This document shows, one piece after another, positions 3,001 through 37,275 of a DNA stretch of 38,650 bases. Both the position numbers and the translations under genes were made by a program. Positions within the stretch are counted from its first letter, which is position 1, and each line of letters opens with the position of its first letter. This DNA is from a virus (Duplodnaviria > Heunggongvirae > Uroviricota > Caudoviricetes). A model generated the notes under the pieces. The model searched no databases. It was not told where the DNA came from and saw nothing but the letters and a program-made list of their open reading frames with translations. The stretch lies in IMG/VR virus record IMGVR_UViG_3300027777_000022. One strand, given 5' to 3'.

Positions 3001-6000
3001 AGTTACTCCTTGTGTGCCTTGGACACCTTGTGTACCCTGTACGCCTTGTACGCCTTGTACGCCTTGTACACCTTGTGTGCCCTGAGCACCAGTGGTGCCT
3101 TGTGTGCCTTGAACACCTTGAACGCCTTGTGTGCCCTGCACGCCTTGTGTGCCCTGCACGCCTTGTGTGCCTTGAACACCTTGTGTGCCCTGCACGCCTT
3201 GAACGCCTTGTGTGCCCTGCACGCCTTGTGTGCCCTGAGCACCAGTGGTGCCTTGTGTGCCTTGGACACCTTGTGTACCCTGTACGCCTTGTACGCCTTG
3301 TACACCTTGTGTGCCCTGAGCACCAGTGGTGCCTTGTGCGCCAGTTACACCTTGTGTGCCTTGAACACCTTGTGTGCCCTGCACGCCTTGAACGCCTTGT
3401 GTGCCCTGCACGCCTTGTGTGCCCTGAGCACCAGTGGTGCCTTGTGCGCCAGTTACACCTTGTGTGCCCTGCACGCCTTGAACGCCTTGTGTGCCCTGAA
3501 CACCTTGTGTGCCTTGAACACCTTGAGTACCTTGTATGCCCTGAACACCTTGTGTGCCCTGAACACCTTGTGTGCCTTGAACACCTTGAGCGCCAGTTAC
3601 ACCTTGAATGCCTTGAACACCTTGTGTGCCTTGAACACCTTGTGTGCCCTGCACGCCTTGAACGCCTTGAACGCCCTGTACACCCTGAACTCCTTGTAAT
3701 CCTTGAGTGCCCTGAGCGCCAGTAGTACCTTGAACACCTTGTGTGCCTTGAACGCCCTGTACACCTTGTGTGCCAGTTACACCCTGGACGCCTTGAACAC
3801 CTTGTGTGCCTTGAACACCTTGTGTGCCTTGAACGCCTTGTACGCCTTGTGTGCCTTGTGTGCCTTGTGTGCCTTGAACACCTTGTGTGCCTTGTACGCC
3901 TTGTGTGCCTTGTACGCCTTGTGTGCCTTGAACGCCTTGTGTACCTTGTGTGCCCTGCACGCCTTGTGTGCCTTGAACGCCTTGTGTACCTTGTGTGCCC
4001 TGCACGCCTTGAGTACCCTGAACACCTTGAACACCTTGAACACCTTGTACGCCTTGTACGCCTTGAGTACCCTGAACACCTTGAACACCTTGTACGCCTT
4101 GAACGCCTTGTGTACCTTGTGCGCCCTGCACGCCTTGTGTGCCTTGAACACCTTGTGTGCCTTGTGTGCCTTGTGTGCCTTGAACACCTTGTGTGCCTTG
4201 AACGCCTTGTGTACCTTGTGTGCCCTGCACGCCTTGAGTACCCTGAACACCTTGAACACCTTGTGTGCTTTGAACGCCTTGTGTACCTTGTGTGCCCTGC
4301 ACGCCTTGAGTACCTTGAACACCTTGTACGCCTTGTACGCCTTGAGTACCCTGAACACCTTGAACACCTTGTACGCCTTGTACGCCTTGAGCGCCGGTTG
4401 TGCCCTGTGCGCCAATTGTACCTTGAACACCCTGTACACCCTGTACGCCTTGTGTGCCCTGTACGCCTTGTGTACCCTGTACGCCTTGTGTGCCTTGGGC
4501 AGCTTGCACACCTTGCACACCTTGGAGACCCTGCACACCTTGAGTTCCTTGAGCACCTGATCCTGCTACAGGAGTGCCGTTGGCGTAGGTAAATCCTGCT
4601 GCTTTTACATTACCAGCCACAGATATATTACCAGCCACACTCAATGCTGTGCCTGATGTGTTTGATATGTTTACTGTGGTGTTTGAACCAAATGTAACAG
4701 TACCATTGCCAAGTCCTGGTCCTATTGAGATTGTGGTAGTGGAGTTAGCTGCGCCATTTTCACCAATGCTAATGGTTTTGGTGTTGCCTGATGTGGTCAC
4801 ACCATTGGCAATTGCCAGAGTGTGTGTCACAGTTGATCTGTCAACTTGTATCGCACCGGTTTGTGATACACCACCTAATACAAGTAACGAAGCAAGTAAG
4901 CTGGTACCAATATTGATATTAGATGAGGTAGCACTAAAATTTACCCCACCATTTACAGATATACTAGATCCAAGAAATCCGCCAGTTGCAACAAAATTAC
5001 CCCCTTGTACATTCCCTGTGGTTGAAATATTACCAGTGGCCACAATACCAGCGGTGGTAACATTACCAGTAGTGCTTAGGCTAGTACCGGTGGCAGCACC
5101 AATGTTAGGGGTTGTTAAGTTAGCACTGGTTTTAACAACAATGTTTCCTGTTCCATCAAATGCTGTGGTTGTGTTGTCTACCTTGGCACTGAACACTGTG
5201 CCTACCAAAGTCAATCCAGCGGAGGTATTTGCAGTGTACACTTGACTTCTGCTGAATTCTGCAAACTGTATGTTACTGGTACCAAATGTGATTGTACCAG
5301 ATGGCGAACTCACAACAAATGCAGCGCCAGCATTGACATTTCCACTTTGCACAAAGAAATAGTCGTTGATACTGATTTCTTCTGTGCTGTTTGCTCCGTA
5401 TTGATCAGTGTCTGAGGAACGTATAATAGCAGTGGTGTTGGCATAGGTATACACACCATTCTGTACGCCATTGGCCTGATTTTGCACCAATACCCGTGTG
5501 CCTACAGTTTGAATATTGGCTCCGTCAATAAGATTGAATACACCAGTAGTTTTTAATGTGGCACCTACGCCATTACCTGCTCCATTGGGTTGGTTATAAG
5601 TTATGGTACCACTGGTAGCTGTTTCCAGAGTGGTTGTGGTAGCTGCATACACTGGCTGGTGAAATGTTATCCCAGTTGTGGCAAAATTATCAACGTATAA
5701 CTTAGTTGCTGCATCATAATCTTGTACAGGCATAGCAAGATTATTGATGTATGTGTTAGCTTTCAATACCACATTGCCGCTAGGGTTTAAATTCAAAGCA
5801 CCGGTACTGGTGATTGTAGTGCCTGTAAAAGATGTTGCTTGCACAATACCGGACAGTGACATGTTAGTGCCAGTGTATGATGGTGAATTTACAGAACCCG
5901 TCGCACTTAGGGTTGTAGCATCAACCCTACCAGTTACAGATAAGTTTCCACCTGTATAACCATCTGCTTGTACATTGCCAGTGATAGAGGCGTTGCCGCC

Positions 6001-9000
6001 ATTTACTGTTCCACTAGTAACACTGCCTGTAACACTGACTACATCACCAGTATAGCTGGCTGTGTTTACAATACCTGTCACAGAAAGTATATTGCCAGTG
6101 GCAGTGAAGGACAATCCAACAGTATCAACGTTGGCAGTTTGATTTGAGCCACTAGCACCTACCATCACAGGATACAATGTGCCTGATGTAACATCAGTAG
6201 CGTTTATAGTAGTGCTAGGACCAGCTAATCCTTGCGTACCTTGTACACCCTGTACACCTTGAACGCCCTGTACACCTTGAACGCCTTGTGTACCTTGAAC
6301 GCCTTGTGTACCTTGAACGCCTTGTGTACCTTGAACGCCTTGTGTACCTTGAGCGCCAGTTACACCTTGTGTGCCTTGTGTACCCTGAACACCTTGTGTA
6401 CCTTGTGTACCTTGTGTACCTTGTGTACCTTGAATGCCCTGTACACCTTGAACGCCCTGTACACCTTGTAATCCCTCAACGCCTTGTACGCCTTGTACGC
6501 CTTGGATGCCCTGTACGCCTTGTGTACCTTGAACACCTTGTGTACCTTGAACACCTTGTGGGCCTTGGATGCCCTGTACGCCTTGCGTACCTTGTACGCC
6601 TTGCGTACCCTGAACGCCTTGTATACCTTGAACGCCTTGTGTGCCCTGTACGCCTTGTGGGCCTTGGATGCCCTGTACACCTTGTGTACCCTGAACGCCT
6701 TGCACACCTTGTGGGCCTTGGATGCCCTGTACGCCTTGCGTACCCTGTACGCCTTGCGTGCCCTGTACGCCTTGTAATCCTTGAATGCCCTGTACACCTT
6801 GTGTACCCTGAACGCCTTGCACACCTTGAGTACCTTGGATGCCCTGTACACCTTGAGTACCTTGGATGCCCTGTACACCTTGAGTACCTTGGATGCCCTG
6901 TACACCTTGTGTACCCTGAACGCCTTGCACACCTTGAGTACCTTGGATGCCCTGTACACCTTGAGTACCTTGGATGCCCTGTACACCTTGAGTACCTTGG
7001 ATGCCCTGTACACCTTGTGTACCCTGAACGCCTTGCACACCTTGAGTACCTTGGATGCCCTGTACACCTTGAGTACCTTGGATGCCCTGTACACCTTGAG
7101 TACCTTGGATGCCCTGTACACCTTGTGTACCTTGAACGCCTTGCGTACCCTGGACGCCTTGAACGCCCTGAACACCTTGTGGGCCTTCAACACCCTGGAC
7201 GCCTTGTGTACCCTGAACGCCTTGAACACCCTGGACGCCTTGTGTACCCTGAACGCCTTGAACACCTTGTGGGCCTTGAACACCCTGAACGCCTTGCACA
7301 CCTTGTGTGCCTTGAACACCTTGTGTGCCTTGAACACCTTGTGTGCCCTGAACACCTTGTGGGCCTTGAACGCCTTGTGTGCCTTGTACGCCTTGGGTAC
7401 CTTGAACGCCTTGTGTGCCTTGCACGCCTTGAACGCCTTGTGTACCCTGCACACCTTGAACGCCTTGTGTGCCCTGGGCGGCTTGAACGCCTTGTACACC
7501 CTGTGTGCCTTGTACACCCTGAACACCTTGAGCACCTGATCCTGCTACAGGAGTGCCGTTGGCGTAGGTAAATCCAGCAGCTTGTACATTACCGGCAGCA
7601 GATATATTACCAGCCACACTCAATGCTGTGCCTGATGTGTTTGATATGAGTACTGTGGTGTTTGACCCAAAGGTGACTGTGCCATTACCAAGTCCTGGTC
7701 CTACTGAGATTGTGGTAGTGGAGTTAGCTGCACCATTTTCGCCAATACTAATAGTTTTGGTATTGCCCGATGTGGTCACACCATTGGCAATATAAAGTGT
7801 TTGTGTCGCAGTTGATCTGCCAACTGTGATTATACCAGTTTGAGCAGTACCTCCCAGAGCTATTACACCAGTGGTCTGACTGGTACCAATGTTGATAGCA
7901 CTAGTGGTTGTACTAAACGTGACAGCTGTACCAGCAGTCAGTGTGCTAGTGGCGCTTATTGATCCGACCACGTTTATTCCGCCAACTGCTTGAATGTTAT
8001 TGGTTTGTAGATTACCTACAATGTGAGCATATCCCAGTATGCCCAGCGAGTTAGAGTTAACAATGGTACTATTACCAGTATCATATTGCCAAACTCGATC
8101 CGTGGTTGACCCAGAAACATATACTGAGTTGTTGGCTAGATTAACATATATCCCAGTTGGTGTGGCCTCTTGGAACCCCACGTTAAAATAATTATTAGAA
8201 TATACGCCAGTGCTGATATCATAAGGTACAGATAACTGATATTGACTGATGTTTCTATTACTATTACCAAGTAACCATAACACAGTTCCTGTGCTGTTGA
8301 ACGTTGCTCCACTTGGTGCACCATCTTGAGCACTTACACTCAGAGATTTGTTAGCATACGCGGCTGTGGCAATGTTGGCGACATTGCTGACTGTGTACTG
8401 ATAGATAGTATCGTTAGTAGTTCCAACAATATACATGTTGGCACCATCAGGACTGAATGTCACTCCAGTTGGTGCAGTTTCTTGAGCACTGATGTTTGCG
8501 CTTAGATTAGAGTAAGAAGCTGTGGCAATATTGGCAACGTTGCTGATACCGTATTGGAACACAATACGAGTGGTTGTGTCCAGCACAAACATGGTGTTGC
8601 CACTGCTGTTGAACCAAAATCCTTGAGGACTGGTAGCCTGTCCATTCACATTGGAACTTAAACTGGCGTAAGAAGCTGTGGCCACCGCCCAAGGAGTAGC
8701 AACATTGTATTGATAAACTGCACGGTTTGCACTACCCAACAAGAACATGGTATTACCACTACTGTTGAAAAACACATCGGTTGCAGATGCGTCCTGAGCA
8801 AGAATGCTCAAGCTGTTGCTAGCCCACCAACCGGCAATGTTGGAAGTATCGCTGTATGTTACCGCGTTGGAGGTGTATAGATTTCCCACAGCACTTACTA
8901 TACCAGCAGTTTTAACATTTCCACCAACAACATTGCCAGCTATAGAAAGTATATTACCAGTGGCAGTAAAAGATAATCCAACAGTATCAACGTTGGCAGT

Positions 9001-12000
9001 TTGATTTGAGCCACTAGCACCCACCATCACAGGATATAATGTTCCTGATGTAACATCAGTAGCGTTTATGGTAGTGCTAGGACCAGCTAATCCTTGCGTA
9101 CCTTGTACACCCTGTACACCTTGAACGCCCTGTACACCTTGAACGCCCTGTACACCTTGTGTGCCTTGTGTGCCAGTTACACCCTGGACGCCTTGGGTAC
9201 CTTGAATGCCCTGTACACCTTGAATGCCCTGTACACCTTGCACACCTTGAATGCCCTGTACACCTTGGATACCCTGTAATCCTTGAACGCCCTGTACACC
9301 TTGTAATCCCTCAACGCCTTGTACGCCTTGAATACCCTGAACGCCCTGAACACCTTGTAATCCTTGAACGCCCTGTACACCTTGTAATCCTTGAATGCCC
9401 TGTACACCTTGGATACCCTGTAATCCTTGAACGCCTTGAACGCCTTGTAAGCCTTGTGTGCCAGTTACACCCTGGACGCCTTGGGTACCTTGAATGCCCT
9501 GTACACCTTGAATGCCCTGTACGCCTTGAATGCCCTGTACACCTTGTAATCCTTGAACGCCCTGTACACCTTGTGTGCCTTGTGTGCCAGTTACACCCTG
9601 GACGCCTTGGGTACCTTGTAATCCTTGAACGCCCTGTGTACCTTGAATGCCCTGAATGCCTTGAACGCCTTGTGTACCTTGAACGCCTTGTATACCCTGA
9701 ACGCCCTGTGTACCTTGAACGCCTTGTGTACCCTGCACGCCTTGGGTACCTTGTAATCCTTGAACGCCCTGTGTACCTTGAATGCCCTGAACACCTTGAA
9801 CGCCTTGTGTGCCTTGTGTGCCCTGCACGCCTTGGGTACCTTGTAATCCTTGAACGCCCTGTACGCCTTGAATGCCCTGAACACCTTGAACGCCTTGTGT
9901 ACCTTGAACGCCTTGTGTGCCTTGTGTGCCCTGCACGCCTTGTGTGCCCTGCACGCCTTGTGTACCCTGAACACCTTGAACGCCTTGTGTACCCTGAACA
10001 CCTTGAACGCCTTGTGTGCCTTGTGTGCCTTGTGTGCCTTGTGTGCCTTGTGTGCCTTGTGTGCCTTGTGTGCCTTGTGTGCCTTGTGTGCCTTGTGTGC
10101 CTTGAACGCCCTGTACACCCTGTACACCCTGAACACCTTGTGTGCCTTGTGCGGCTTGTACACCTTGAACGCCCTGTACACCCTGAACGCCTTGTAATCC
10201 TTGAGTGCCTTGAACGCCCTGTACACCTTGTGTGCCAGTTACACCCTGGACGCCTTGAACACCTTGTGTGCCTTGAACGCCTTGTAATCCTTGAACGCCT
10301 TGTAATCCTTGAACGCCCTGTGTACCTTGAATGCCCTGAACACCTTGAACGCCTTGTGTACCTTGAACGCCTTGTGTGCCTTGTGTGCCCTGCACGCCTT
10401 GTGTGCCCTGCACGCCTTGTGTACCCTGAACACCTTGAACGCCTTGTGTGCCTTGTGTGCCTTGTGTGCCTTGTGTGCCTTGTGCGGCTTGTACACCCTG
10501 AACGCCTTGTAATCCTTGAGTGCCCTGAGCGCCAGTAGTACCTTGAACACCTTGTGTGCCTTGAACGCCCTGTACACCTTGTGTGCCAGTTACACCCTGG
10601 ACGCCTTGAACGCCTTGTGTGCCTTGAACGCCTTGTAATCCTTGAACGCCTTGTAATCCTTGAACGCCCTGTGTACCTTGAATGCCTTGAACACCTTGAG
10701 TGCCCTGAGCGCCAGTAGTACCTTGAACACCTTGTGTGCCTTGAACGCCCTGTACACCTTGTGTGCCTTGAACGCCTTGTAATCCTTGAACGCCCTGTAC
10801 ACCTTGTGTGCCTTGAACGCCCTGTACACCTTGTGTGCCTTGAACGCCTTGTAATCCTTGAACGCCCTGTACACCTTGTGTGCCTTGAACGCCTTGTAAT
10901 CCTTGAACGCCTTGTAATCCTTGAACGCCCTGTACACCCTGAACGCCTTGTAATCCTTGAGTGCCCTGAGCGCCAGTAGTACCTTGAACACCTTGTGTGC
11001 CTTGAACGCCCTGTACACCTTGTACACCTTGTGTACCTTGCACGCCTTGTACACCTTGTGTACCTTGAACACCTTGTGTGCCTTGAACGCCTTGTAATCC
11101 TTGAACACCTTGTGTGCCTTGAACACCCTGAGTGCCTTGTGCACCGGTAGTACCTTGAACGCCTTGTGTGCCAGTTACACCTTGAACGCCTTGTACACCT
11201 TGAACGCCCTGTACACCTTGTGTGCCTTGTGTGCCAGTTACACCTTGAACGCCTTGAGTACCTTGTACACCTTGAGTACCTTGAACGCCTTGAGCACCTG
11301 TTGTACCTTGAGCGCCAGTGGTGCCCTGCACGCCTTGTACGCCTTGCACGCCCTGTACGCCTTGAGCGCCGGTTGTACCTTGAACGCCCTGTACGCCTTG
11401 TGTGCCTTGTGTGCCTTGTGTTCCTTGGGCAGCTTGAACACCCTGCACACCTTGTCTGCCCTGTACGCCTTGAACACCCTGTGTGCCTTGAGCACCTGAT
11501 CCTGCTACAGGAGTGCCGTTGGCGTAGGTAAATCCGGCTGCTTGTATATTACCAGCTACAGAAATATTACCAGCCACACTTAGTGCTGTGCCTGATGTGT
11601 TTGATATGTTTACAGTTGTGTTTGACCCAAAGGTAACTGTGCCATTGCCAAGACCAGGACCTACTGAGATTGTGGTAGTGGAGTTGGCTGCGCCATTTTC
11701 ACCAATGCTGATGGTTTTGGTATTGCCCGATGTGGTCGCACCATTGGCAATTGCCAAAATTTGTGTTGCATTCGATTGCCCAACGGTGATTGTACCAGTT
11801 TGTATAGGTCCACCTAACGTGAGTGCTGGTGTTAATTGTCCAGTACCGATATTAATAGTTGAAAGAGTTGTGGCAAAAGTTACTGTTCCGGTTGTAGATA
11901 AAAGCGAGCCAAAAAATCCGCCACTTGCTGCAACATAATTACCCGCTTGTACATTCCCTGCCACGCTCAGTGCTGTGTTCGAAACGTTGGCAATAGCAAC

Positions 12001-14727
12001 TGCGGTATTGGCAGTGTAACTCACTGTGGTATTACCAGTGCTTGCACCAATGGTCAATGTTGAATTGCCTGCCACATTACTGAAAATTGTCACATTGCTG
12101 ATTGAGTTTGCAACACCATTGGCAGCAATATTGATTGTCTTGATGTTACCACTGGATGTGGCACCTATACCAATGTTCAAGATTTGTGTGGCTGTGGATT
12201 GCCCAATTAAGATATTACCAGTTTGGGCAGTGGCACCAATTGTGGTTGTGCCAGTTGTTTGGCTTGTTCCAATACTGATTGTGCCTGTTGTGGTACTAAC
12301 AGTAAATGTACTTCCAGCCGTGAATGTACTATCAACTGTGAATGTGGATTCTGCTCTTACTGCACCGCCAAGTTGTACTTGTTGACCAAACCAAGTGTTA
12401 CCTTGAACTGCCAATTGTCCTTGAATACCCACAGCATTGGCAGTGAGCATGATAGAATTGGCTGTGTTATATTGAAAAACAGTATCGGCGGCAGTACCAA
12501 TCATCCAAGCTCGACTATTGGCCAAGTCAACAAATATGCCAGTGGGCGTGCTTTCTTGTGCCAGTATACCAAAACTATTTCCCAATGCAAAAGTTGCTGT
12601 GCTTACATCCCATGGTGTGGCAAGATTGTACTCATAAAAAGCAGGTATGTTTTGGGCTGTGACCCACATCTTGGCGCCGTCACTGCTTAAATTAACTGCA
12701 TGTGTGCTGCCTCCAGCAGAACTGGTGGTATTAAATGATTTGTTAGCGTAAGCGGCTGTGGCAATATTGCCTGGAGTAGACAATGTGTATTGATAAACTG
12801 TGCTGTTGGTAGTACCAACCATGTACATTGTGGTCAAATCAGGTCTGAACCACAATCCAGATGGCGCAGAGTCTTGTGCTGAAACGTTGGCGCTTAGTGT
12901 TGCATATGTGGCTGTGGTAATATTCCATGGCGTCGCCATGGTGTATTGATACACAGATCTACTGGTTTGCCCCAACACATACAAGTTAGCACCAGTACTG
13001 TCAATAAACAAGTCATTGGGACTGCCATCTTGTGTGGTTACACTAACATTACCAAACACTGTGCCAGTGTTGGCCATATTGGTAGTTGACATGTTGTATT
13101 GAAACACACGATCATTCGTAGTACCAACTAGATAAAAACTTGAGCCTGCGTTACCAAAGAAAAGTCCAGTACCGTTAGATTCGGATGCAGCAGTTGACAA
13201 GCTAACGTTTGAATAACTCCAGCCTTGAATTGCACTGGTACTGGAATTTACGTTAACATTGCTGAGTGTTAGATTACCTGTTGTAAGAACTAGATTACCA
13301 GCTGACACATTTCCAGCAACTGACAATGCATTGGTTTGTGCATTGAATACAAATCCAGCAGTTGTGACATTGGCCAATTGATTGCTACCAGCAGCACCTA
13401 CCATTACAGGATACAATGTAGTGGTTGTGTTATTGTCAGTGGCATTTATAGTATTGCCTGGACCTACTACGCCCTGTGTACCCTGTACGCCTTGAACACC
13501 TTGTGTACCTTGTATGCCTTGCACACCTTGTGTACCCTGAACACCTTGTGTACCCTGAACACCCTGAACACCTTGTGTACCTTGCACGCCTTGAGGGCCC
13601 TGTACGCCTTGTACGCCTTGTGTGCCTTGAACACCTTGAACGCCTTGTGTACCCTGTACGCCTTGAACGCCTTGTGTACCCTGTACGCCTTGAACGCCTT
13701 GTATACCTTGAACGCCTTGTATACCTTGAACGCCTTGTGTACCTTGCACGCCTTGTGTACCCTGAACGCCTTGTGTGCCCTGTACGCCTTGTACACCCTG
13801 TAATCCCTCAACACCTTGTACTCCTTGCACACCTTGTGTACCCTGAACGCCCTGAACGCCCTGCACACCTTGTGTGCCCTGTACGCCTTGTAATCCTTCA
13901 ACACCTTGTGTACCCTGTACACCTTGCAATCCTTCAACACCCTGAATGCCTTGTACACCTTGTAATCCCTCAACGCCTTGAACACCCTGTACGCCTTGAA
14001 CACCCTGTACGCCTTGAGTACCTTGTACGCCTTGTGTACCTTGAGCTCCGGATCCTGCCACGGGATCACCATTTGCATAGTAAAATCCGGCTGCTGTCAC
14101 ATTCCCAGTAACAGTTACTAGACCAAGAGAACTTAGATTGCCGCTGGTGATATTTCCTGCTACCAACAACCCAGTAGTATCAAAAACTGCTACATTAGAA
14201 ATTCCGCCCACACTTACTGTGATATTACCGCCAGAGCTAACCACAGTTACATTGGATGATCCATTGTTGATATTAGCAACTGAGGTAATAACACCACTTA
14301 AGAAAGCCCCGTTTCCTAAGAAATAATTACCAGTGATATTACCTGCGGCCGATACTATTCCAGATGCTAGAAAATTATTAGCACTGATATTCCCAGTAAC
14401 ACTGATACTGGGAATATTCAATCCACCAGATCCTATATAGATTGAATTGAATCGTAAAGTTGGGCTACCTAGATCGTACACATTGTCCCAGCTGGGGATT
14501 ACAGTATTTGTTACTTGTATTTTGCCAATGCCGTTTGGCGACAGGATCAAGTTACCATTGCTGTTGATTGTGCGAATAGTGTTGTTGGCTATGGCTACAT
14601 TGCTCAGCACTGGGCCCGCAGCAAAAACTTGATCAAAGTTTTGATTAGTGTAACTAAAGGCAGTACGTAACGGATCACCTTGTCCGTCATCGGGTACTGC
14701 GCCAATATCAATGGTGTATTGTGTCAT
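1..14727 (-). CDS. Giant modular collagen-like tail/baseplate fibre protein (>=4909 aa, 3' end beyond left window edge)
   Basis: ATG at 14727 reads [31 protein letters not shown], resembling the T4 gp10/gp9 N-terminal motif (INIG..DDGTGD.LR....IN.NF). The same frame carries all five G-X-Q blocks and the spacers I translated, with no stop found, down to base 1. TAAATA box upstream. Absent from the ORF track, probably because there is no stop codon in the window. Confidence 0.9.
79..1791 (-). repeat. Collagen-like 9-bp/Gly-X-Y repeat block 5 (~570 aa; [12 protein letters not shown])
   Basis: Tandem 9-mers (e.g. plus-strand ttgcacacc, ttgagcacc, agtagtacc) translating to G-X-Q/G-X-T on the minus strand. 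Confidence 0.95.
2506..4557 (-). repeat. Collagen-like repeat block 4 (~685 aa; [12 protein letters not shown])
   Basis: Tandem 9-mers, Gly every third codon. Confidence 0.95.
6223..7536 (-). repeat. Collagen-like repeat block 3 (~440 aa; GTQ, GVQ, GIQ, some GPQ)
   Basis: Tandem 9-mers with higher-order 27-bp and ~108-bp units around 6790-7130. Confidence 0.95.
8080..8830 (-). other. Five-repeat beta-propeller-like domain B within giant fibre
   Basis: Five ~50-aa repeats, consensus SV.AQ...P.G..F..DG..MY..G..ND.IYQY.....W.IATA.Y. Confidence 0.7.
9085..11496 (-). repeat. Collagen-like repeat block 2 (~805 aa; [12 protein letters not shown])
   Basis: Tandem 9-mers, including a pure run of ~10 ttgtgtgcc (GTQ) at ~10012-10101. 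Confidence 0.95.
12465..13220 (-). other. Five-repeat beta-propeller-like domain A within giant fibre
   Basis: Five ~50-aa repeats, e.g. [45 protein letters not shown]. Confidence 0.7.
13462..14049 (-). repeat. Collagen-like repeat block 1 (~195 aa)
   Basis: Tandem G-X-Q triplets starting after [12 protein letters not shown]. Confidence 0.95.
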
Positions 14728-15408: not shown

Positions 15409-16224
15409 TTAGGAAGTAACATTGTCAATAACTGCCAATGGAATGTAACCAGCCGGTGCACCTGCAACCGATTCTGTAGCAGTATCTGTTTCTGAACCTG
15501 ACTGTGCAACGCCACCTTCGTCTGTAAAGAAGTTGGCCACATAGAAAAGTTCATTACTGTAGTCGACTTCACCAAGATTAGCATTGCTGTAATCGCCGGC
15601 AGTTCCTGCCCAGTCACGTACCCACTTGTTGCTGAGATTGCTAGCGTAAGCGTCTGAGCTGTCACCAGATTCGTAACCAATGCTCATGTAACCACCTGCT
15701 GGTGCACCAGTGTTGCTCAAAATGCACACACCTACTGGGTATGCGGTTCCATTGCCACCGCCGTCAGCTGCTCTGGCTGTGAAAATATCGCCAGGTGACA
15801 CATTGCCAGTTCCTGTACCAACTGTTTGCCAATTGGTAGTTCCTAGCACAGCAATTTGATATGCTTGACCCACGGTAAAACTGCCATCGGAAACTGTGGC
15901 TGCTGTATAAGCTACCAAATACTTGTGATTGCCTTTCTGTCGAATAATACGACCAGCACCAGCACCAGTGGTGTTACCATCAGGATATAGAATATTCACC
16001 GTGGCCAACACTTCAGGATAGGTGGCACTGGGTTGGCTTGTGGCAGGTGATCCGCCAACCACGCCCAAGAACTGTGCTGCATTTAGAGTCTGCGTGGGTG
16101 CATTATAAACTGGAACATCCAGTGCGCTGAAAGGTGGATAAGCAAGATCCACAGGTGTGGCGGCGCCAGGGCTACCAACACCAGTATTTAAACTGTATTT
16201 TTGTATTTTAAGAGGACGTCCCAT
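15409..16224 (-). CDS. Putative virion structural protein (MGRPLK N-terminus), function unknown
   Basis: 271 aa, Gly/Ala/Thr-rich, strong SD AAGGAG, late box upstream, own terminator. Confidence 0.65.
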   Translation of the reverse strand: MGRPLKIQKYSLNTGVGSPGAATPVDLAYPPFSALDVPVYNAPTQTLNAAQFLGVVGGSPATSQPSATYPEVLATVNILYPDGNTTGAGAGRIIRQKGNHKYLVAYTAATVSDGSFTVGQAYQIAVLGTTNWQTVGTGTGNVSPGDIFTARAADGGGNGTAYPVGVCILSNTGAPAGGYMSIGYESGDSSDAYASNLSNKWVRDWAGTAGDYSNANLGEVDYSNELFYVANFFTDEGGVAQSGSETDTATESVAGAPAGYIPLAVIDNVTS

Positions 16225-16227
16225 TTG

Positions 16228-16318
16228 TTTTCTCCTTAAAGAAGTCCGATGAAGGTTCTAGCTTCTACGCGGCGGGTTAAACCGCATAAGACGCAGGATT
16301 GCGTACAACACTTATTTA
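16228..16318 (-). promoter_or_regulatory. Late promoter (TAAATA 16313-16318) plus structured ~85-nt 5' leader
   Basis: Three consecutive stems (ACGCA/TGCGT, TATGCGGT/GCCGCGTA, GAAG/CTTC) between the box and the SD. Confidence 0.55.
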
Positions 16319-33620: not shown

Positions 33621-34457
33621 ATGCTACCAAACAACCCCCTAACACAATATTTCCGTCAACCTGCCATCTACATACGACTGCCTTCTGGAGGTAAATTTTA
33701 TCCACCAGGCACACTGAATATGCCAGCCAATGGCGAATTACCAGTGCTGCCCATGACCAGTGTGGATGAAATAACTTACAGAACTCCAGATGCATTGTTT
33801 AACGGCACAGCCACAGTAAATGTGATCAAAAGCTGTATTCCGTCTATCAGAGATCCATGGGCCATGCCAGCGTCCGACGTTGATGCTGCACTAGTAGGTA
33901 TCCGCATTGCCAGTTACGGGCATGCTATGGATCTTGATGTCACATGCCCAGCATGCAGTACTGACGAATCAATCAGTGTTGACTTACGTGTGGTCAACGA
34001 TACATTAAAAATAGGTGATTATGAAAACTCGTTAAGCATTAGTGATTTGGAATTTTGGTTTCGCCCTATTCCATACAAATTTGTAAACGACAACAATCAG
34101 ATGCAAATTGAACAACAACAGGCCATGCGTGTGCTTGAAAGTGATGTGGACGAAAAAACAAAACTGGAACAGTTGAATCGTAGCATGCGGTTGATCAATG
34201 AAACCACATTAAGAACCATAGCCCAGAGTATTGCTGCCATCAAGACACCACAAGCAATGGTAACTGAAACTGAATTTATCATTGACTATCTACAAAATTG
34301 CGACAGTAAAATATTCAATCAATTACGTGATCATGTGATTGCAATCAAAAAACAAAGTGATGTGCAACCACTGGCACTGACGTGTAAGGAATGTAGTCAC
34401 CAGTATTCACAACCTTTTACACTGGATCTATCAAGTTTTTTCGTCGACGCCTCCTGA
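33621..34457 (+). CDS. gp26: Baseplate hub subunit/assembly protein (gp26-like)
   Basis: YIRLPSGGKFY, PMTSVDE, D.DA.L..IRIASYG, two CxxC (CPAC, CKEC), terminal SFF. Confidence 0.75.
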   Translation: MLPNNPLTQYFRQPAIYIRLPSGGKFYPPGTLNMPANGELPVLPMTSVDEITYRTPDALFNGTATVNVIKSCIPSIRDPWAMPASDVDAALVGIRIASYGHAMDLDVTCPACSTDESISVDLRVVNDTLKIGDYENSLSISDLEFWFRPIPYKFVNDNNQMQIEQQQAMRVLESDVDEKTKLEQLNRSMRLINETTLRTIAQSIAAIKTPQAMVTETEFIIDYLQNCDSKIFNQLRDHVIAIKKQSDVQPLALTCKECSHQYSQPFTLDLSSFFVDAS

Positions 34458-34483
34458 CCTCTAGCCCAGAAGAGATCGACCAG

Positions 34484-34672
34484 TTGATCGAGAACATGGA
34501 CAAAGATTGTCAAAACATACGCCAGGAGGCTATCAAGATAAGTTGGTTTATGAGAGGTGGATTAACTTACGATCAAGCCATGGCATTGGGTATGCATGAA
34601 CGTGAGATCATAAACAACTTGATCAAAGACAATTTAGAGACCACCAAAAAAAGTGGATTGCCATTTTTTTAG
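34484..34672 (+). CDS. gp51-like small baseplate assembly protein; probably also the C-terminal part of a -1 frameshift product
   Basis: ISWFMRGGLTYDQAMAL...ERE; frame is -1 relative to the upstream gene and open back through 34436. Confidence 0.6.
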   Translation: MIENMDKDCQNIRQEAIKISWFMRGGLTYDQAMALGMHEREIINNLIKDNLETTKKSGLPFF

Positions 34673-34697
34673 TAAAACGGAAACTTTCATTTGTTAG

Positions 34698-34820
34698 TCT
34701 GAAGAAACAAAACAAAAAATGCGTAAACCAAAACCAAAACCAAAATCAGAAGCGCACAAGAAAGCAATTTCACAAGCACGTATTGCAAAATATAAAGCAT
34801 TACATGAGTCATCTGTTTAG
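34698..34820 (+). pseudogene. C-terminal relic of a NUMOD3-containing homing endonuclease
   Basis: Reads SEETKQKMRKPKPKPKSEAHKKAISQARIAKYKALHESSV*; in-frame TAG immediately upstream, no catalytic domain. Confidence 0.65.
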
Positions 34821-35210
34821 AGACTTGCTACGCAAGTCTATTGATTCGCTGTCGCTCATCAATGTATTTTTGTTTCTTGAATTAGTATCATCTAGATACT
34901 GTGGTCATAATTCACCGTATGCACGGTGAATTGATGCATCATCTGAGTGACAGCAGTCATTTATTATAAAGAGATTGTTGTTTCCAACGCAGAGGCGGTT
35001 GACCGGTACCCCTTACTCTAGCTTCACATATCAACGGAACCCTAGTGACCCGATAATAAATCCAAGTCCTATGAGCATGGGGTGTATCTTTTTCACAGAG
35101 CCCAAACCATTTATTGCCTTAAGTTAGCAATTGCCTTTGACGCCCAAGTCCAGACCGGGTATCGCACCGTTCCTCAATGGGGTTGAGTCATATCACTCAA
35201 CACAGAGTCT
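34821..35210 (-). ncRNA. Candidate large structured non-coding element (ncRNA or origin)
   Basis: No ORF >60 aa; at least seven stem-loops, including a perfect 10-bp stem (34909-34932) and GTTG-GAAA-CAAC; strand inferred from the GNRA loop and upstream operon. Confidence 0.5.
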
Positions 35211-35211
35211 A

Positions 35212-36024
35212 TTAGATATATTTGATTTGCTGCCAGGAGGGGTCGAATGTGACTAGGAGATTGTGATAAAATTTTAAATCAGGTGATAACATCAAGTATG
35301 TAAACTCGCCTCGACCTTCGTATTCTTCGTCGTCGAATTCTGAGTCTTCAAATACTTGTTTGACTAACTTGTATAAATCTAGTTTTAGTTGGCCTGACTG
35401 ATGAGTTTTTTGATCGTTGATTGGTAGTCTGATGTTGTGATTTTGTGTGGCAAACAGATTTATCATATGTGTTTTGATCTGTTCATCACTTTGCTGATAC
35501 ATAGGAATGCAGTTGATTTTATCTAACCATGGGCCTAGAGTCATTGTATACGACATACTATGCGGATCTCCTACAATGACTGATTTTAACAGCACCAGAG
35601 GAATTTGATTTATATCATAATTCATGACCGGAAGGATTTTCCTCCATAACCACTCTGTGATTCCTTTGAGATATCTCTTAGTAGGATCTTCAAAAATTCC
35701 AAAACACACGGTGCCGGGTTTTAGATCCAAAATGTTAGTTTCTTTCCAACCAAGGGTATTCTTAAACAGGGTTATGTAGTAGTCAGATGCACACTTCCGC
35801 AACGGTAAAAACGCCAAGTTCTCATGGCAATACACAGTGATCAAACTGTCTTGCCAATAGCTCTGCGATTCTATCTGCTTGCGTCGATGATTAAACCCAT
35901 GTAGATTCACACATTCTTGTTGTATTTTTGCCGGCAACTTTAAAAAATCAGCGTAGTTTTCAACCTTAGGCCAGGACTTGTCTTTTACATCATTGTAAAA
36001 TCTTTTTAAAAATATGTCCGACAC
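35212..36024 (-). CDS. Sulfotransferase-family-like protein with short N-terminal KDxSWP module
   Basis: FLPLRKCAS (cf. PKCA/GS PAPS loop), FEDPTKRYLKG (cf. RDP..R..S), DPH. Confidence 0.45.
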   Translation of the reverse strand: MSDIFLKRFYNDVKDKSWPKVENYADFLKLPAKIQQECVNLHGFNHRRKQIESQSYWQDSLITVYCHENLAFLPLRKCASDYYITLFKNTLGWKETNILDLKPGTVCFGIFEDPTKRYLKGITEWLWRKILPVMNYDINQIPLVLLKSVIVGDPHSMSYTMTLGPWLDKINCIPMYQQSDEQIKTHMINLFATQNHNIRLPINDQKTHQSGQLKLDLYKLVKQVFEDSEFDDEEYEGRGEFTYLMLSPDLKFYHNLLVTFDPSWQQIKYI

Positions 36025-36028
36025 GGTG

Positions 36029-36463
36029 TTATATTCCTATTTTGTTTAGTATCTGCCGGCCGTGTACTCTTACCTGTATATGGCCATTGTAATAGTCTTG
36101 TGATTCTAATACTTGTCTGCTGAACTGCTCACGTGCTTCAATGTATGAACATTCACTTTTGCTATTGCAGTAGAAAAGTATTTCTCTGGTAAAATTGTTG
36201 GTGCCTAGTTTTTCAATGTCTGCGGATAATTCTGCACTGGATCCATAATATTGCTGCCAATCTGAATCAATTTTGCTTCGTATACGTTTTTTCTTTTTGA
36301 TGCCGTTTTTTTGTTTGACTGTTCGGTAAGTTGTTTTTGAAAACTTAGCTAGTTTTTTGCCTATGTATTTGCGTCCTGATAGATTATTTGTGATCAAGTA
36401 AACAAACCCTACACATGTTTCTGGTAATGTCTCCACTGGGGTGTTTTGATATATCCATGTCAT
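36029..36463 (-). CDS. Small GIY-YIG family nuclease (catalytic domain only)
   Basis: GFVYLITN..SGRKYIGKK, SDWQQYYGSS, FTREIL, E...QF, YYN. Confidence 0.85.
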   Translation of the reverse strand: MTWIYQNTPVETLPETCVGFVYLITNNLSGRKYIGKKLAKFSKTTYRTVKQKNGIKKKKRIRSKIDSDWQQYYGSSAELSADIEKLGTNNFTREILFYCNSKSECSYIEAREQFSRQVLESQDYYNGHIQVRVHGRQILNKIGI

Positions 36464-36480
36464 GTATACTAGTTATCATG

Positions 36481-37275
36481 TTATAAAAATGCCTGTAATT
36501 TTTGGATTAAAAAGGTTGCAAATGCTCGATTGCTTTTGATTCCTGGATGTAAATTATCTAATCCCCTGTCTAGAAAAAAATCATTACGATAGCACTGATC
36601 TATATTTAACCAGTTACATTGTGTGATACCGTTATACTCTTGATGAATACGATCGTAAATTTTAAAATATTCATTGTCGTCGCGTAAGGTGGCATTTAAC
36701 ATCTGTTGCGTAAATTTGGTAGTCATGCTAGGAGTTCTATTTGGCTCAGTAATCTGATCAAAATAATTGCGATCCCACTCTGTCACTAATGCGTTTAAAA
36801 AAAACACAGTTATTCCCAATTTATCACATAATTTTTTTAATACATTGGTATAATTTACTATTTCTACCATGAGATAGTGCGGAGAATACAAGTCAAATAA
36901 TCTATTCTTGATATTTTCAATATACTTTGCACTGTAAGTTATACCGTTGTTGAGATTTACATCATTAATTTGACTTTTTGGTCCAAAATATAGTTTGGTA
37001 CTATAAGTTTCTGTTCCTGGATCTAAATGCATTCTAAATAGTTCTGTCCAAGAGACAAACAAATATTCACAGTCGACAGTTGATACAGCATCAATGGCAT
37101 TGAGAAAAATATCTCGGTTGGTTCCTCCACTCTTTCCAACATTCATCAATTGTGTAGTTTTCAAACGATCAACAGTTGAATGCAGTATGTTGACCCATAA
37201 ATCTGAATCCAATGATTGATTTAATAATCCGACGCCGGCAGTATATGAACATCCTGAAAATACTGTGTATCTCAT
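36481..37275 (-). CDS. SGNH/GDSL hydrolase-like protein
   Basis: FSGCSYTAG (block I), NVGKSGGTN (block II), DNLHPG (block V). Confidence 0.65.
   Translation of the reverse strand: MRYTVFSGCSYTAGVGLLNQSLDSDLWVNILHSTVDRLKTTQLMNVGKSGGTNRDIFLNAIDAVSTVDCEYLFVSWTELFRMHLDPGTETYSTKLYFGPKSQINDVNLNNGITYSAKYIENIKNRLFDLYSPHYLMVEIVNYTNVLKKLCDKLGITVFFLNALVTEWDRNYFDQITEPNRTPSMTTKFTQQMLNATLRDDNEYFKIYDRIHQEYNGITQCNWLNIDQCYRNDFFLDRGLDNLHPGIKSNRAFATFLIQKLQAFL

What the first reader, a model, noticed from the sequence alone, without database searches (positions are those of the whole stretch)
34821..35210. ~390-nt densely structured non-coding element downstream of a catalytic-domain-only GIY-YIG nuclease
Seen (minus 5'->3'): GTTGAGT/ACTCAAC (35182-35201), ATTGC/GCAAT, GACTTGGAT/ATCGGGTC, CGG-TCAA-CCG, GTTG-GAAA-CAAC, AATTCACCGT/ACGGTGAATT (34909-34932), AGTATC/GATACT, ATTGAT/ATCAAT and AGACTTGC/GCAAGTCT. 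A possible long-range GGAAC/GTTCC pairing (35169-35173 with 35036-35040) would close a multibranch domain. It is the longest ORF-free tract in a gene-dense window and matches no RNA family I recognise. The same operon, one gene upstream, encodes a 144-aa GIY-YIG protein with a basic KQKNGIKKKKRIR insert but no separate DNA-binding domain. Inference: an undescribed large phage ncRNA, possibly an RNP partner of that nuclease. A replication or packaging origin is the alternative.
Basis: partly seen in the sequence, partly recalled or inferred. Interest (0 to 1): 0.8.

Follow-up and report, generated by a model that had tools for sequence, protein, structure and literature searches.

The report
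Twin-box structured RNA of giant phages
The gene-free 390 bases encode a real, intricately folded and knotted non-coding RNA shared by hundreds of uncultured giant lake phages. It nearly always sits just behind a small nuclease gene, but nothing shows that the nuclease needs it. Its job, including that of two always-identical 7-letter words, is unknown.

Summary
**Observation: confirmed.** Window 34821-35210 (minus strand) is a conserved structured RNA.
- 160 unique homologues were found in IMG/VR contigs, 80-98% identical, where the neighbouring baseplate hub protein falls to about 50% identity.
- My 93-pair model, which includes a pseudoknot, is 98.3% paired. 44 pairs show compensatory changes (slid controls 9-14; 0 of 500 shuffles reach this).
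- G-U cells outnumber A-C cells 1070 to 29, which fixes the strand.
- There is no coding signal.

**Family.** No Rfam family matches the window. In sister clades, Rfam RF01718 (Polynucleobacter-1, 75-79 bits) forms the 5' third of homologous RNAs. So this is a variant of a partly catalogued family. This scan has met the family before on other DNA.

**Twin boxes.** Two 7-nt boxes (34944-34938 and 34893-34887) flank an invariant hairpin. They vary between phages but are identical within each RNA (158 of 160). I found no complementary partner in the RNA, within 3 kb, or in a comparison of two complete genomes.

**Nuclease link.**
- For: the 144-aa GIY-YIG gene lies upstream in 146 of 148 assessable loci and directly abuts the RNA in 113. 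In this window a 270-aa ORF is inserted between them.
- Against: homologous nucleases exist without the RNA. One locus has a PDDEXK nuclease in that position instead. No nuclease residue tracks the boxes.

An RNA-nuclease particle is therefore not shown (about 6%). The function is unknown.

The parts
34821..35210 (-). Whole structured RNA (about 390 nt) in the twin-box / extended Polynucleobacter-1 family
   Evidence: Conserved block in more than 100 contigs. Alignment A1 has 91 unique rows; 160 unique rows after the core-pattern scan. Covariation. No coding signal.
35139..35209 (-). 5' three-way junction: P1 (35209-35207 / 35141-35139), hairpin P1a (35201-35195 / 35188-35182), P2 (35181-35178 / 35146-35143), P2a (35173-35167 / 35158-35152)
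   Evidence: helices 1-4: 14 of 20 pairs have changes on both sides. In sister clades this domain is replaced by RF01718.
35114..35131 (-). P3 hairpin UUGCU/GGCAA
   Evidence: helix 5 (UA:61, CG:26 at columns 91/107). Preferred over RNAalifold's long-range pairing, which never covaries.
35078..35104 (-). P4 hairpin (35104-35101 / 35081-35078, with an inner stem)
   Evidence: helices 6-7 (GC:44, UA:33, CG:10 at columns 117/144).
35039..35076 (-). P5 long hairpin. Its loop (35061-35054) forms the 5' strand of the pseudoknot.
   Evidence: helices 8 and 9.
34959..34966 (-). 3' strand of the pseudoknot (UAAUAAAU), pairing with the P5 loop
   Evidence: helix 9: 4 of 7 pairs with changes on both sides, for example CG:67, UA:18.
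34970..35019 (-). Nearly invariant core: P7 (35019-35016 / 34973-34970) encloses P8 (GGGGU..CGG-UCAA-CCG..CCUCU) and P9 (GUUG-GAAA-CAAC)
   Evidence: helices 11-15. Invariant stretches are listed. The core pattern is present in more than 120 viral contigs.
34938..34944 (-). Box A (AGAUGAU), preceded by CUC and followed by G. Positions 1-2 can pair with CUG at 34956-34954.
   Evidence: Helix 16. The pairing covaries between clades.
34910..34931 (-). Invariant 9-10-bp hairpin AAUUCACCGU-GCAU-ACGGUGAAUU between the boxes
   Evidence: Exact 24-mer in 111 viral contigs. helix 17 (8 of 9 pairs never vary). Sister clades carry a different hairpin at the same place.
34887..34893 (-). Box B (AGAUGAU), preceded by UCU and followed by A
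   Evidence: Identical to box A in 158 of 160 unique RNAs. The two boxes change together at least 7 times (position 1) and at least 5 times (position 5) on the tree.
34864..34886 (-). A-rich linker of variable length
   Evidence: Alignment A1, columns 397-442.
34840..34863 (-). Hairpin with a conserved GA/GA(A) internal loop and a 2-bp GC tip (AUUGAU-GA-GC-loop-GC-GA-AUCAAU)
   Evidence: helices 18-19 (7 of 8 pairs with changes on both sides).
34821..34839 (-). Terminal hairpin AGACUUGC-GUA-GCAAGUCU, abutting the stop codon of a convergent small ORF. Probable 3' end or terminator (inferred).
   Evidence: Compensatory variants (ACUUGC, AUCUC, AUGUAC, AACUUC, AUUAGC). The scan finds no canonical U-tract terminator.
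35212..36024 (-). 270-aa ORF of unknown function, an insertion between the nuclease gene and the RNA
   Evidence: Found in only about 6 related loci. No Pfam or PHROG match.
36029..36463 (-). 144-aa stand-alone GIY-YIG nuclease gene (PF19835); the usual immediate upstream neighbour of the RNA
   Evidence: Pfam E = 5e-33. AF2 model pLDDT 96, with residues 40-66 forming a long beta-hairpin. Best solved match is the I-TevI catalytic domain, Z 8.2. Y22, Y33, R93, E109 and N126 are conserved. Linkage.

Best explanation
**What it is.** This is an RNA gene in its own right: a compact, pseudoknotted non-coding RNA of about 390 nt from the phage 'twin-box' family. In sister clades the 5' third of that family is the Rfam motif Polynucleobacter-1.

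**How it is made.** It is read from the minus strand as the last element of the gp46 ... GIY-YIG transcription unit. It starts within about 7-25 nt of the preceding stop codon (shown). It ends at a covarying hairpin that abuts the convergent genes (shown). Co-transcription and release by processing are inferred.

**How it most likely works (inferred).** The conserved, knotted core acts as a scaffold. It displays two identical single-stranded 7-nt words on either side of an invariant hairpin, which looks like a protein-binding site. The two words are read by one and the same partner. I think the most likely mode is base-pairing with one short complementary sequence in a nucleic acid that is not encoded next to the RNA. 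Less likely, the two words contact each other directly.

**The nuclease.** Its adjacency is best read as conserved operon position, possibly that of a once-mobile Seg-type nuclease gene parked beside a very conserved RNA gene. It is not evidence of a partnership. The biological role is not known.
For: **Real RNA, and its strand.**
- 98.3% of cells are paired; 44 of 93 pairs have changes on both sides; controls give 9-14; 0 of 500 shuffles reach this.
- G-U 1070 against A-C 29 cells.
- No 3-base periodicity and no conserved open frame.

**Conservation far above the neighbours.** 80-98% nucleotide identity where the hub protein is about 50% identical.

**Pseudoknot.**

**Family tie.**
- RF01718 scores 79 and 75 bits in L346 and L344. 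In both it lies directly after the GIY-YIG stop and directly before the stretch that matches my profile at positions about 198-368.
- The same CUC-box-G ... UCU-box-A layout is found there.

**Twin boxes.**
- Identical in 158 of 160 RNAs, across 9 haplotypes including transversions.
- On a tree built without the box columns, position 1 changes at least 7 times and position 5 at least 5 times, always in both boxes together. 6 of 6 independent pairs agree (p = 0.03).
- Sister clades carry GAAUAAU, UCGUGAU or ACAUGAU, again twice.

**No partner in cis.**

**Independence from the nuclease.**
- GIY-YIG homologues at 43-55% identity lie beside nrdA/B, denV and uvsY with no RNA.
- A clade with the same neighbours (hub, orf62, gp46) has GIY-YIG but no detectable RNA.
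- L259 has a PDDEXK nuclease directly upstream instead.
- 33 of 148 loci have unrelated ORFs inserted between the nuclease gene and the RNA.
- No nuclease residue tracks the box haplotype.
Against: - No transcript data exist, so the 5' and 3' ends and release from the mRNA are inferred.
- No partner for the boxes was found. There is none within 3 kb, no genome-wide excess of the complement in a complete 347-kb relative, and no co-varying site between two complete genomes. The central mechanistic step therefore rests on exclusion.
- The nuclease linkage is very tight (146 of 148 loci). It persists into clades where the nuclease is only about 50% identical and where the RNA's 5' domain has been exchanged. 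That is more than ordinary synteny might predict.
- The one replacement gene at that position is again a nuclease.
Confidence: 0.6

Rival explanations
1. RNA-nuclease particle. The RNA is the partner of the small GIY-YIG nuclease, which lacks a DNA-binding domain. It supplies target recognition through the two identical 7-nt boxes (for example the two half-sites of a symmetric target), or it holds the nuclease in check as an RNA inhibitor.
For: - The RNA begins 7-25 nt after the nuclease stop codon in 113 of 148 loci, and the nuclease lies upstream in 146 of 148.
- The pairing persists in clades with about 50% nuclease identity and a different 5' RNA domain.
- The protein is a catalytic domain only, with intact catalytic residues.
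- The only non-GIY gene found directly upstream is another small nuclease (PDDEXK).
- The boxes vary between lineages, as a specificity element would.
Against: - Homologous small GIY-YIG proteins are common without any RNA. This includes a clade in nearly the same neighbourhood.
- Unrelated ORFs are often inserted between the two genes.
- No nuclease residue covaries with the boxes.
- The model shows no recognisable RNA-binding module, only a GIY-YIG core plus a beta-hairpin.
- 7 nt is short for a guide.
- No target carrying the complement was found.
Confidence: 0.06
2. Cis-acting 3' element. The folded region belongs to the messenger RNA. It serves the upstream operon as a stabiliser against 3' exonucleases, as a terminator or processing platform, or as a regulator of nuclease expression.
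For: - It always lies at the 3' end of the unit, directly after a stop codon, and ends in a hairpin that abuts convergent genes.
- Inserted cargo ORFs all lie upstream of it and in the same orientation.
- No separate promoter is predicted.
Against: - About 330 nt of knotted, near-invariant core with twin boxes is far more than stabilisation or termination needs.
- The sequence is conserved much more strongly than the genes it would serve.
- The upstream gene can be exchanged without any change in the RNA.
Confidence: 0.12
3. DNA-level element. The region would be a replication origin, a packaging site or a recombination site, with the identical boxes acting as iterons or crossover cores.
For: - Repeated identical words that may drift only together are typical of iterons and of crossover regions.
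- An A-rich tract and hairpins are present.
Against: - The constraint is strand-specific: 1070 G-U against 29 A-C cells.
- 44 pairs, including a loop-to-strand pseudoknot, are kept by compensatory change.
- No variant lacks the inter-box segment; the spacing is 49-60 nt in all 160 RNAs.
- The inverted repeat around box B is not conserved.
Confidence: 0.03

Closest known systems
Polynucleobacter-1 RNA motif (Rfam RF01718; Weinberg et al. 2010, Genome Biol 11:R31, PMC2864571)
   Same: In sister phage clades (L346, L344), RF01718 matches at 79 and 75 bits directly behind a homologous GIY-YIG gene. It is followed by a stretch homologous to positions about 198-368 of this RNA, with the same CUC-box-G ... 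hairpin ... UCU-box-A layout. Both come from freshwater samples, and both have unknown function.
   Different: - The RF01718 model (141 positions) finds nothing at E <= 10 in this window, in nine divergent relatives, or in five related phage records. This form has a different 5' domain.
- The Rfam entry covers only the first third of the RNA and was listed as possibly cis-regulatory.
- The knotted core and the twin boxes are not catalogued.
Large orphan bacterial and phage RNAs (GOLLD, ROOL, HEARO, OLE)
   Same: It is long, has many helices, is strongly conserved, and was found by comparative genomics. It is partly phage-borne and its function is unknown. HEARO is likewise named for its link to a nuclease gene (from my own knowledge).
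   Different: None of these Rfam families matches. This RNA is shorter, and none of those families is known to me to carry two co-varying identical words.
Guide RNAs of small mobile-element nucleases (omega RNA of IscB/TnpB; IS110 bridge RNA)
   Same: A structured RNA is encoded directly beside a small nuclease or recombinase gene, and it has short variable segments inside a conserved scaffold.
   Different: - The protein is GIY-YIG, not RuvC, HNH or DEDD.
- There are no transposon ends.
- The nuclease family occurs widely without the RNA.
- The variable segment is duplicated and only 7 nt long.
- No target was found.
Free-standing Seg-type GIY-YIG homing endonucleases of T4-like phages and the I-TevI catalytic domain
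   Same: The protein matches PF19835 (SegE GIY-YIG domain) at E = 5e-33. It is structurally closest to the I-TevI catalytic domain (Z 8.2, rmsd 2.6 A over 82 residues). Its homologues sit between conserved DNA-metabolism genes, as seg and mob genes do.
   Different: - It has only 144 aa and no C-terminal DNA-binding domain.
- It is near-universal and well conserved (67-94% identity) in this phage group rather than sporadic.
- T4 EndoII is a weaker match (Z 5.2).

Membership tests
Rfam RF01718 Polynucleobacter-1 | Covariance-model score at or above the gathering score (37 bits) | tested here: not met
   No match at E <= 10 in window 34300-35700 or 34800-35230. None in nine divergent relatives or in five related phage records, including a complete genome.
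Rfam RF01718 Polynucleobacter-1 | Homology of the rest of the RNA to the RNA that carries RF01718 | tested here: met
   - L346: RF01718 at 1948-2090 (79.3 bits), followed by an nhmmer match to A1 positions 200-368 at 2190-2345.
- L344: RF01718 at 1991-2132 (74.9 bits), followed by a match to positions 198-366.
- The twin boxes are conserved in layout.
Twin-box phage RNA (uncatalogued family; the name comes from this scan's earlier notes) | Two identical 7-nt words flanking a hairpin, changing only together | tested here: met
   Identical in 158 of 160 unique RNAs; at least 12 concerted changes on the tree.
Twin-box phage RNA (uncatalogued family; the name comes from this scan's earlier notes) | Pseudoknotted conserved core supported by covariation | tested here: met
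   helix 9 (pseudoknot) has 4 of 7 pairs with changes on both sides; overall 44 of 93 pairs do.
RNA-guided nuclease systems (CRISPR, OMEGA, bridge RNA) | The nuclease family is consistently associated with the RNA | tested here: not met
   Seven homologues at 43-55% identity with informative downstream sequence, and a further clade, have no RNA. From the RNA side the link is strong, at 146 of 148 loci.
RNA-guided nuclease systems (CRISPR, OMEGA, bridge RNA) | A guide segment complementary to an identifiable target | tested here: inconclusive
   The boxes are variable, but no complementary site was found in cis, genome-wide, or co-varying between two genomes. Host targets could not be searched.
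RNA-guided nuclease systems (CRISPR, OMEGA, bridge RNA) | Physical binding of RNA and protein, and RNA-dependent cleavage | not testable with these tools
   This needs biochemistry.
Group I intron carrying a GIY-YIG homing endonuclease | Interrupts a host gene (flanking exons) and matches the intron model | tested here: not met
   The flanks are a stop codon upstream and convergent genes downstream, and they differ between loci. No Intron_gpI match at E <= 10.
tmRNA, RNase P RNA, 6S, SRP, tRNA | Match to the family model | tested here: not met
   ARAGORN finds none in the window, and Rfam finds none. A related complete genome has its 27 tRNA genes and a tmRNA gene at another place.
GIY-YIG nuclease superfamily (the neighbouring protein) | GIY-YIG fold with the conserved Tyr, Tyr, Arg, Glu and Asn | tested here: met
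   PF19835 at E = 5e-33. I-TevI Z 8.2, UvrC N-terminal domain 5.5, T4 EndoII 5.2. Y22, Y33, E109 and N126 are invariant and R93 at least 90% conserved across 42 homologues.

The most novel reading that the evidence does not exclude
The RNA and the domain-less GIY-YIG nuclease form a new kind of RNA-programmed nuclease. The two identical 7-nt boxes would each pair with one strand of a symmetric target, so that two nicking events make a double-strand break. The boxes would drift as the target or competitor changes.
Probability: 0.05. Interest if true: 0.95.

Novelty: new variant of a known kind. Interest (0 to 1): 0.6.

Why it matters
Large, knotted, strongly conserved RNAs of unknown function are rare. 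In the past, RNAs of this kind turned out to be ribozymes, riboswitches or the cores of RNA-protein machines.

This one is common in giant freshwater T4-like phages. Databases record only a fragment of a sister form, labelled as a possible leader of a gene.

Two words that may change only together make a clean, testable constraint. They point to a reader that is still missing: a nucleic-acid partner, a dimeric factor or an unusual contact within the RNA.

Even if it is not, the family is a good target for structure determination and for correcting the Rfam entry.

Tried and rejected
**Known RNA families.**
- Rfam at gathering and at E <= 10 on the window gave only chance miRNA and lncRNA rows.
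- ARAGORN found nothing.

**Cultured phages.** GenBank phages hold no DNA match for the RNA and no protein match for the 270-aa ORF.

**Own genome.** No whole genome is held for the window.

**Structure alternatives rejected.**
- RNAalifold's long-range helix 103-106/371-375 never covaries. The local P3 helix does.
- A helix between the segments preceding the two boxes gave no consistent register.
- Hammerhead and kink-turn readings of UGAUGAGC..GCGAA fail: the 'CUGAUGA' part covaries as a stem, and the boxes tolerate G to A at the would-be sheared pair.

**Partner for the boxes: none found.**
- No complementary site within 3 kb on either strand.
- No covarying column in the 91- or 160-row alignments.
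- No excess of the complement in a 347-kb genome.
- Two hairpin loops carrying the complement lie inside ORFs and look like chance.
- Two complete genomes with different boxes share no homologous site with matching complements.

**Other ideas tested.**
- A never-ending reading frame across a repeated inter-box unit: the unit length is 49-60 nt and is a multiple of 3 in only 38 of 160 RNAs.
- Coevolution of the nuclease with the boxes: best normalised mutual information 0.44-0.51, at multi-state surface positions, against 0.20-0.36 for three control RNA columns; no GIY-YIG position is perfectly associated with the box state.
- Sequence search for solved relatives of the nuclease found none. Only fold comparison did.
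- Simple promoter and terminator scans gave counts at chance level.

Full report
**1. What is at 34821-35210**

The tract lies on the minus strand, between the stop codon of a 270-aa ORF (35212-36024) and convergent small ORFs followed by a T4-type baseplate hub gene (33621-34457, PF12322). The window comes from an uncultured giant T4-like phage. Its hub protein is only about 31% identical to those of Atu_ph07 and PA5oct-type jumbo phages. The tract has a higher G+C content (0.44-0.47) than its neighbours (0.33-0.38).

On its own it folds only moderately better than shuffled sequence (z = -3.1 on either strand). Rfam and ARAGORN recognise nothing.

**2. Conservation**

- The 24-nt hairpin AATTCACCGTGCATACGGTGAATT occurs exactly in 111 IMG/VR contigs.
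- Blastn of window 34700-35300 against the fetched loci shows a block whose ends fall exactly at 35209 and 34821. It is 80-98% identical in more than 100 contigs.
- In the same contigs the hub protein drops to about 50% amino-acid identity.
- In total I collected 160 unique RNA sequences.
- The only hits in about 186,000 prokaryote genomes are two large contigs of one Haliscomenobacter metagenome-assembled genome. These are probably binned phage DNA.

**3. It is a structured RNA read from the minus strand**

On alignment A1 (91 unique rows), RNAalifold found 80 pairs, 35 of them with compensatory changes. I revised the model in two ways:
- A local helix P3 replaces a long-range helix that never covaries.
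- I added a pseudoknot between the loop of the long hairpin (35061-35054) and 34966-34959.

The resulting 93-pair structure gives these figures:

| Measure | Observed | Controls |
|---|---|---|
| Cells paired | 98.3% | 35-46% when partners are slid |
| Pairs with changes on both sides | 44 | 9-14 when slid |
| Shuffles reaching the observed value | 0 of 500 | |

Other evidence:
- G-U cells outnumber A-C cells 1070 to 29, so the minus strand is the one under selection.
- Variable columns show no 3-base periodicity (53, 49 and 51 by position modulo 3), and no frame is conserved open.
The proposed GGAAC/GTTCC closure and the AGTATC/GATACT hairpin are not.

**4. The twin boxes**

Two 7-nt words, AGAUGAU at 34944-34938 and at 34893-34887, flank the invariant hairpin.
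- Across the 160 RNAs they take nine forms: AGAUGAU, GGAUGAU, AGAUAAU, GGAUAAU, AGAUGAA, AGACGAA, GGAUGAG, ACAUGAA and AGAUCAA. The two copies are identical in 158 of the 160 RNAs.
- On a maximum-likelihood tree built without the box columns, position 1 changes at least 7 times and position 5 at least 5 times, always in both boxes together. 6 of 6 independent pairs agree (p = 0.03).
- Recombination between phages could inflate these counts.
- Box A is always preceded by CUC and followed by G. Box B is preceded by UCU and followed by A.

I looked for a reader of the boxes and found none:
- No covarying column in the RNA.
- No complement at a consistent place within 3 kb.
- No excess of the complement in a complete 346,856-bp relative.
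- No homologous site with matching complements between two complete genomes whose boxes differ at two positions.
- The inter-box unit is 49-60 nt long and is not held to multiples of three.

Only the first two box-A bases have a local partner (CUG at 34956-34954). That small helix covaries between clades.

**5. The nuclease link**

From the RNA side the link is strong. Of 148 assessable unique loci:

| Arrangement upstream of the RNA | Loci |
|---|---|
| Homologue of the 144-aa GIY-YIG gene ends within 60 nt of the RNA | 113 |
| GIY-YIG upstream, with one or two ORFs inserted | 33 |
| No GIY-YIG found | 2 |

- The window belongs to the second class. Its 270-aa ORF is one of at least six unrelated insert families, which also include radical SAM proteins and a 264-aa protein.
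- The nuclease is well conserved (67-94% identity). It keeps Y22, Y33, R93, E109 and N126.
- Its model has pLDDT 96. The 'basic insert' forms a long beta-hairpin at residues 40-66.
- Its closest solved relative is the I-TevI catalytic domain (Z 8.2). PD-T4-3 (7.3), the UvrC N-terminal domain (5.5) and T4 EndoII (5.2) follow.

From the protein side the link is not general:
- The family is large, with 2132 clusters at 50% identity.
- I looked up eight members at 43-58% identity. In one (58%) the contig ends at the gene. The other seven (43-55%) lie beside nrdA/B, denV, uvsY or rnh in T4-like contigs: ORFs follow within about 140 nt in six, the seventh contig also ends at the gene, and none of the loci gives a profile match to the RNA.
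- Several more distant clades with the gp47-gp46-GIY order do keep a divergent RNA after the nuclease.
- Another clade, with the same neighbours (hub, orf62, gp46), has the nuclease followed by a small ORF and a terminator, and no detectable RNA.
- One RNA locus (L259) has a PDDEXK nuclease (PF24608) directly upstream instead of GIY-YIG.
- No nuclease residue follows the box haplotype.

Overall, this is a very stable operon position but no demonstrated dependence. The PDDEXK replacement and the persistence of the pair over long distances keep the partnership idea alive, but at low odds.

**6. Relation to what is known**

Earlier notes of this scan name this family 'twin-box RNA' and call it a relative of Polynucleobacter-1 (RF01718). 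I tested that.
- The RF01718 model does not match this window, nine divergent relatives or five related phage records at E <= 10.
- In two sister loci it matches at 79 and 75 bits (gathering score 37). There it lies right after the GIY-YIG stop and right before a stretch homologous to positions about 198-368 of this RNA.
- Those RNAs carry CUC-GAAUAAU-G and UCU-GAAUAAU-AC around a hairpin.

So RF01718 is the 5' third of sister forms. The window's form has a different 5' domain, and the knotted core with the boxes is uncatalogued. Weinberg et al. 2010 list the motif only in a table, as a possible cis-regulator from Burkholderiales and fresh water. No other paper in the held library mentions the motif, and a full-text search on GIY-YIG with structured or non-coding RNA in phages turned up none describing a GIY-YIG-linked RNA.

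**7. Mechanism**

Shown:
- a knotted, conserved RNA;
- its strand;
- its position at the 3' end of the unit;
- the identity constraint on the two boxes.

Inferred: it is released as a stable RNA and acts as a scaffold. The scaffold presents two equivalent single strands and an invariant hairpin to one reader.

| Reader of the boxes | Odds |
|---|---|
| Base-pairing with one short sequence in a nucleic acid encoded elsewhere, or in the host | about 35% |
| Direct box-to-box contact that needs like-with-like bases | about 15% |
| A dimeric protein | about 10% |
| Other or unknown | remainder |

Separate from that table, and overall, I put pairing to a target on behalf of the adjacent nuclease at about 5%. 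A DNA-level role is unlikely because the selection is strand-specific.

**8. Verdict**

- The interpretation as a large non-coding RNA is right.
- 'Undescribed' is half right.
- The nuclease partnership is untested by anything beyond synteny and is partly contradicted.

The object is a new variant of a partly known RNA family. It is of real interest to RNA biologists, mainly because of the unexplained twin boxes.

Noticed in passing
window 16222-16306 (-): Rfam freshwater-2 RNA (RF02980), 70.1 bits against a gathering score of 49.9. This is a second catalogued orphan motif in the same phage, just upstream of the ORF at 15409-16224.
   Followed up: no
window 1-14727 (-): One open reading frame of at least 4909 aa that runs off the window end: a giant protein gene.
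   Followed up: no
L259:2293-2805 (-) and L259:3231-7355 (-): In one relative, the gene directly upstream of the RNA is a PDDEXK nuclease (PF24608) instead of GIY-YIG. It is preceded by three radical SAM genes and a short-chain dehydrogenase-like gene.
   Followed up: partly
L209:472-871 and L210:4016-4405: The only prokaryote-genome hits for the RNA core are two contigs (148 kb and 183 kb) of a Haliscomenobacter metagenome-assembled genome. This is either mis-binned phage DNA or a weak host clue.
   Followed up: partly
5' flank of the RNA in a subset of loci (for example L010, L137, L155, L113, L037): A short AGGCARC word sits between the preceding stop codon and the RNA start, whatever the upstream gene. 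It repeats the internal AAGGCAAC of helix P3, so it could offer an alternative pairing. The window lacks it.
   Followed up: no
window 36481-37275 (-); also L086, L054, L137, L155: The 264-aa ORF, which has GDSL/SGNH-like motifs by eye only, is a mobile accessory gene. In relatives it sits before the nuclease gene, between the nuclease gene and the RNA, or beyond the RNA on the other strand.
   Followed up: partly
window 34687-34820: Two overlapping small ORFs lie on opposite strands: 33 aa on the plus strand (lysine-rich) and 41 aa on the minus strand (hydrophobic). The 33-aa frame recurs in 5 relatives by tblastn. Its stop codon abuts the RNA's terminal hairpin.
   Followed up: partly
G001 (IMGVR_UViG_3300027759_000045) 102805-116353: The complete 346,856-bp relative, which has direct terminal repeats, carries 27 tRNA genes and a permuted tmRNA gene. 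26 of the tRNA genes and the tmRNA gene sit in one cluster, far from the twin-box RNA at 195305-195687.
   Followed up: no
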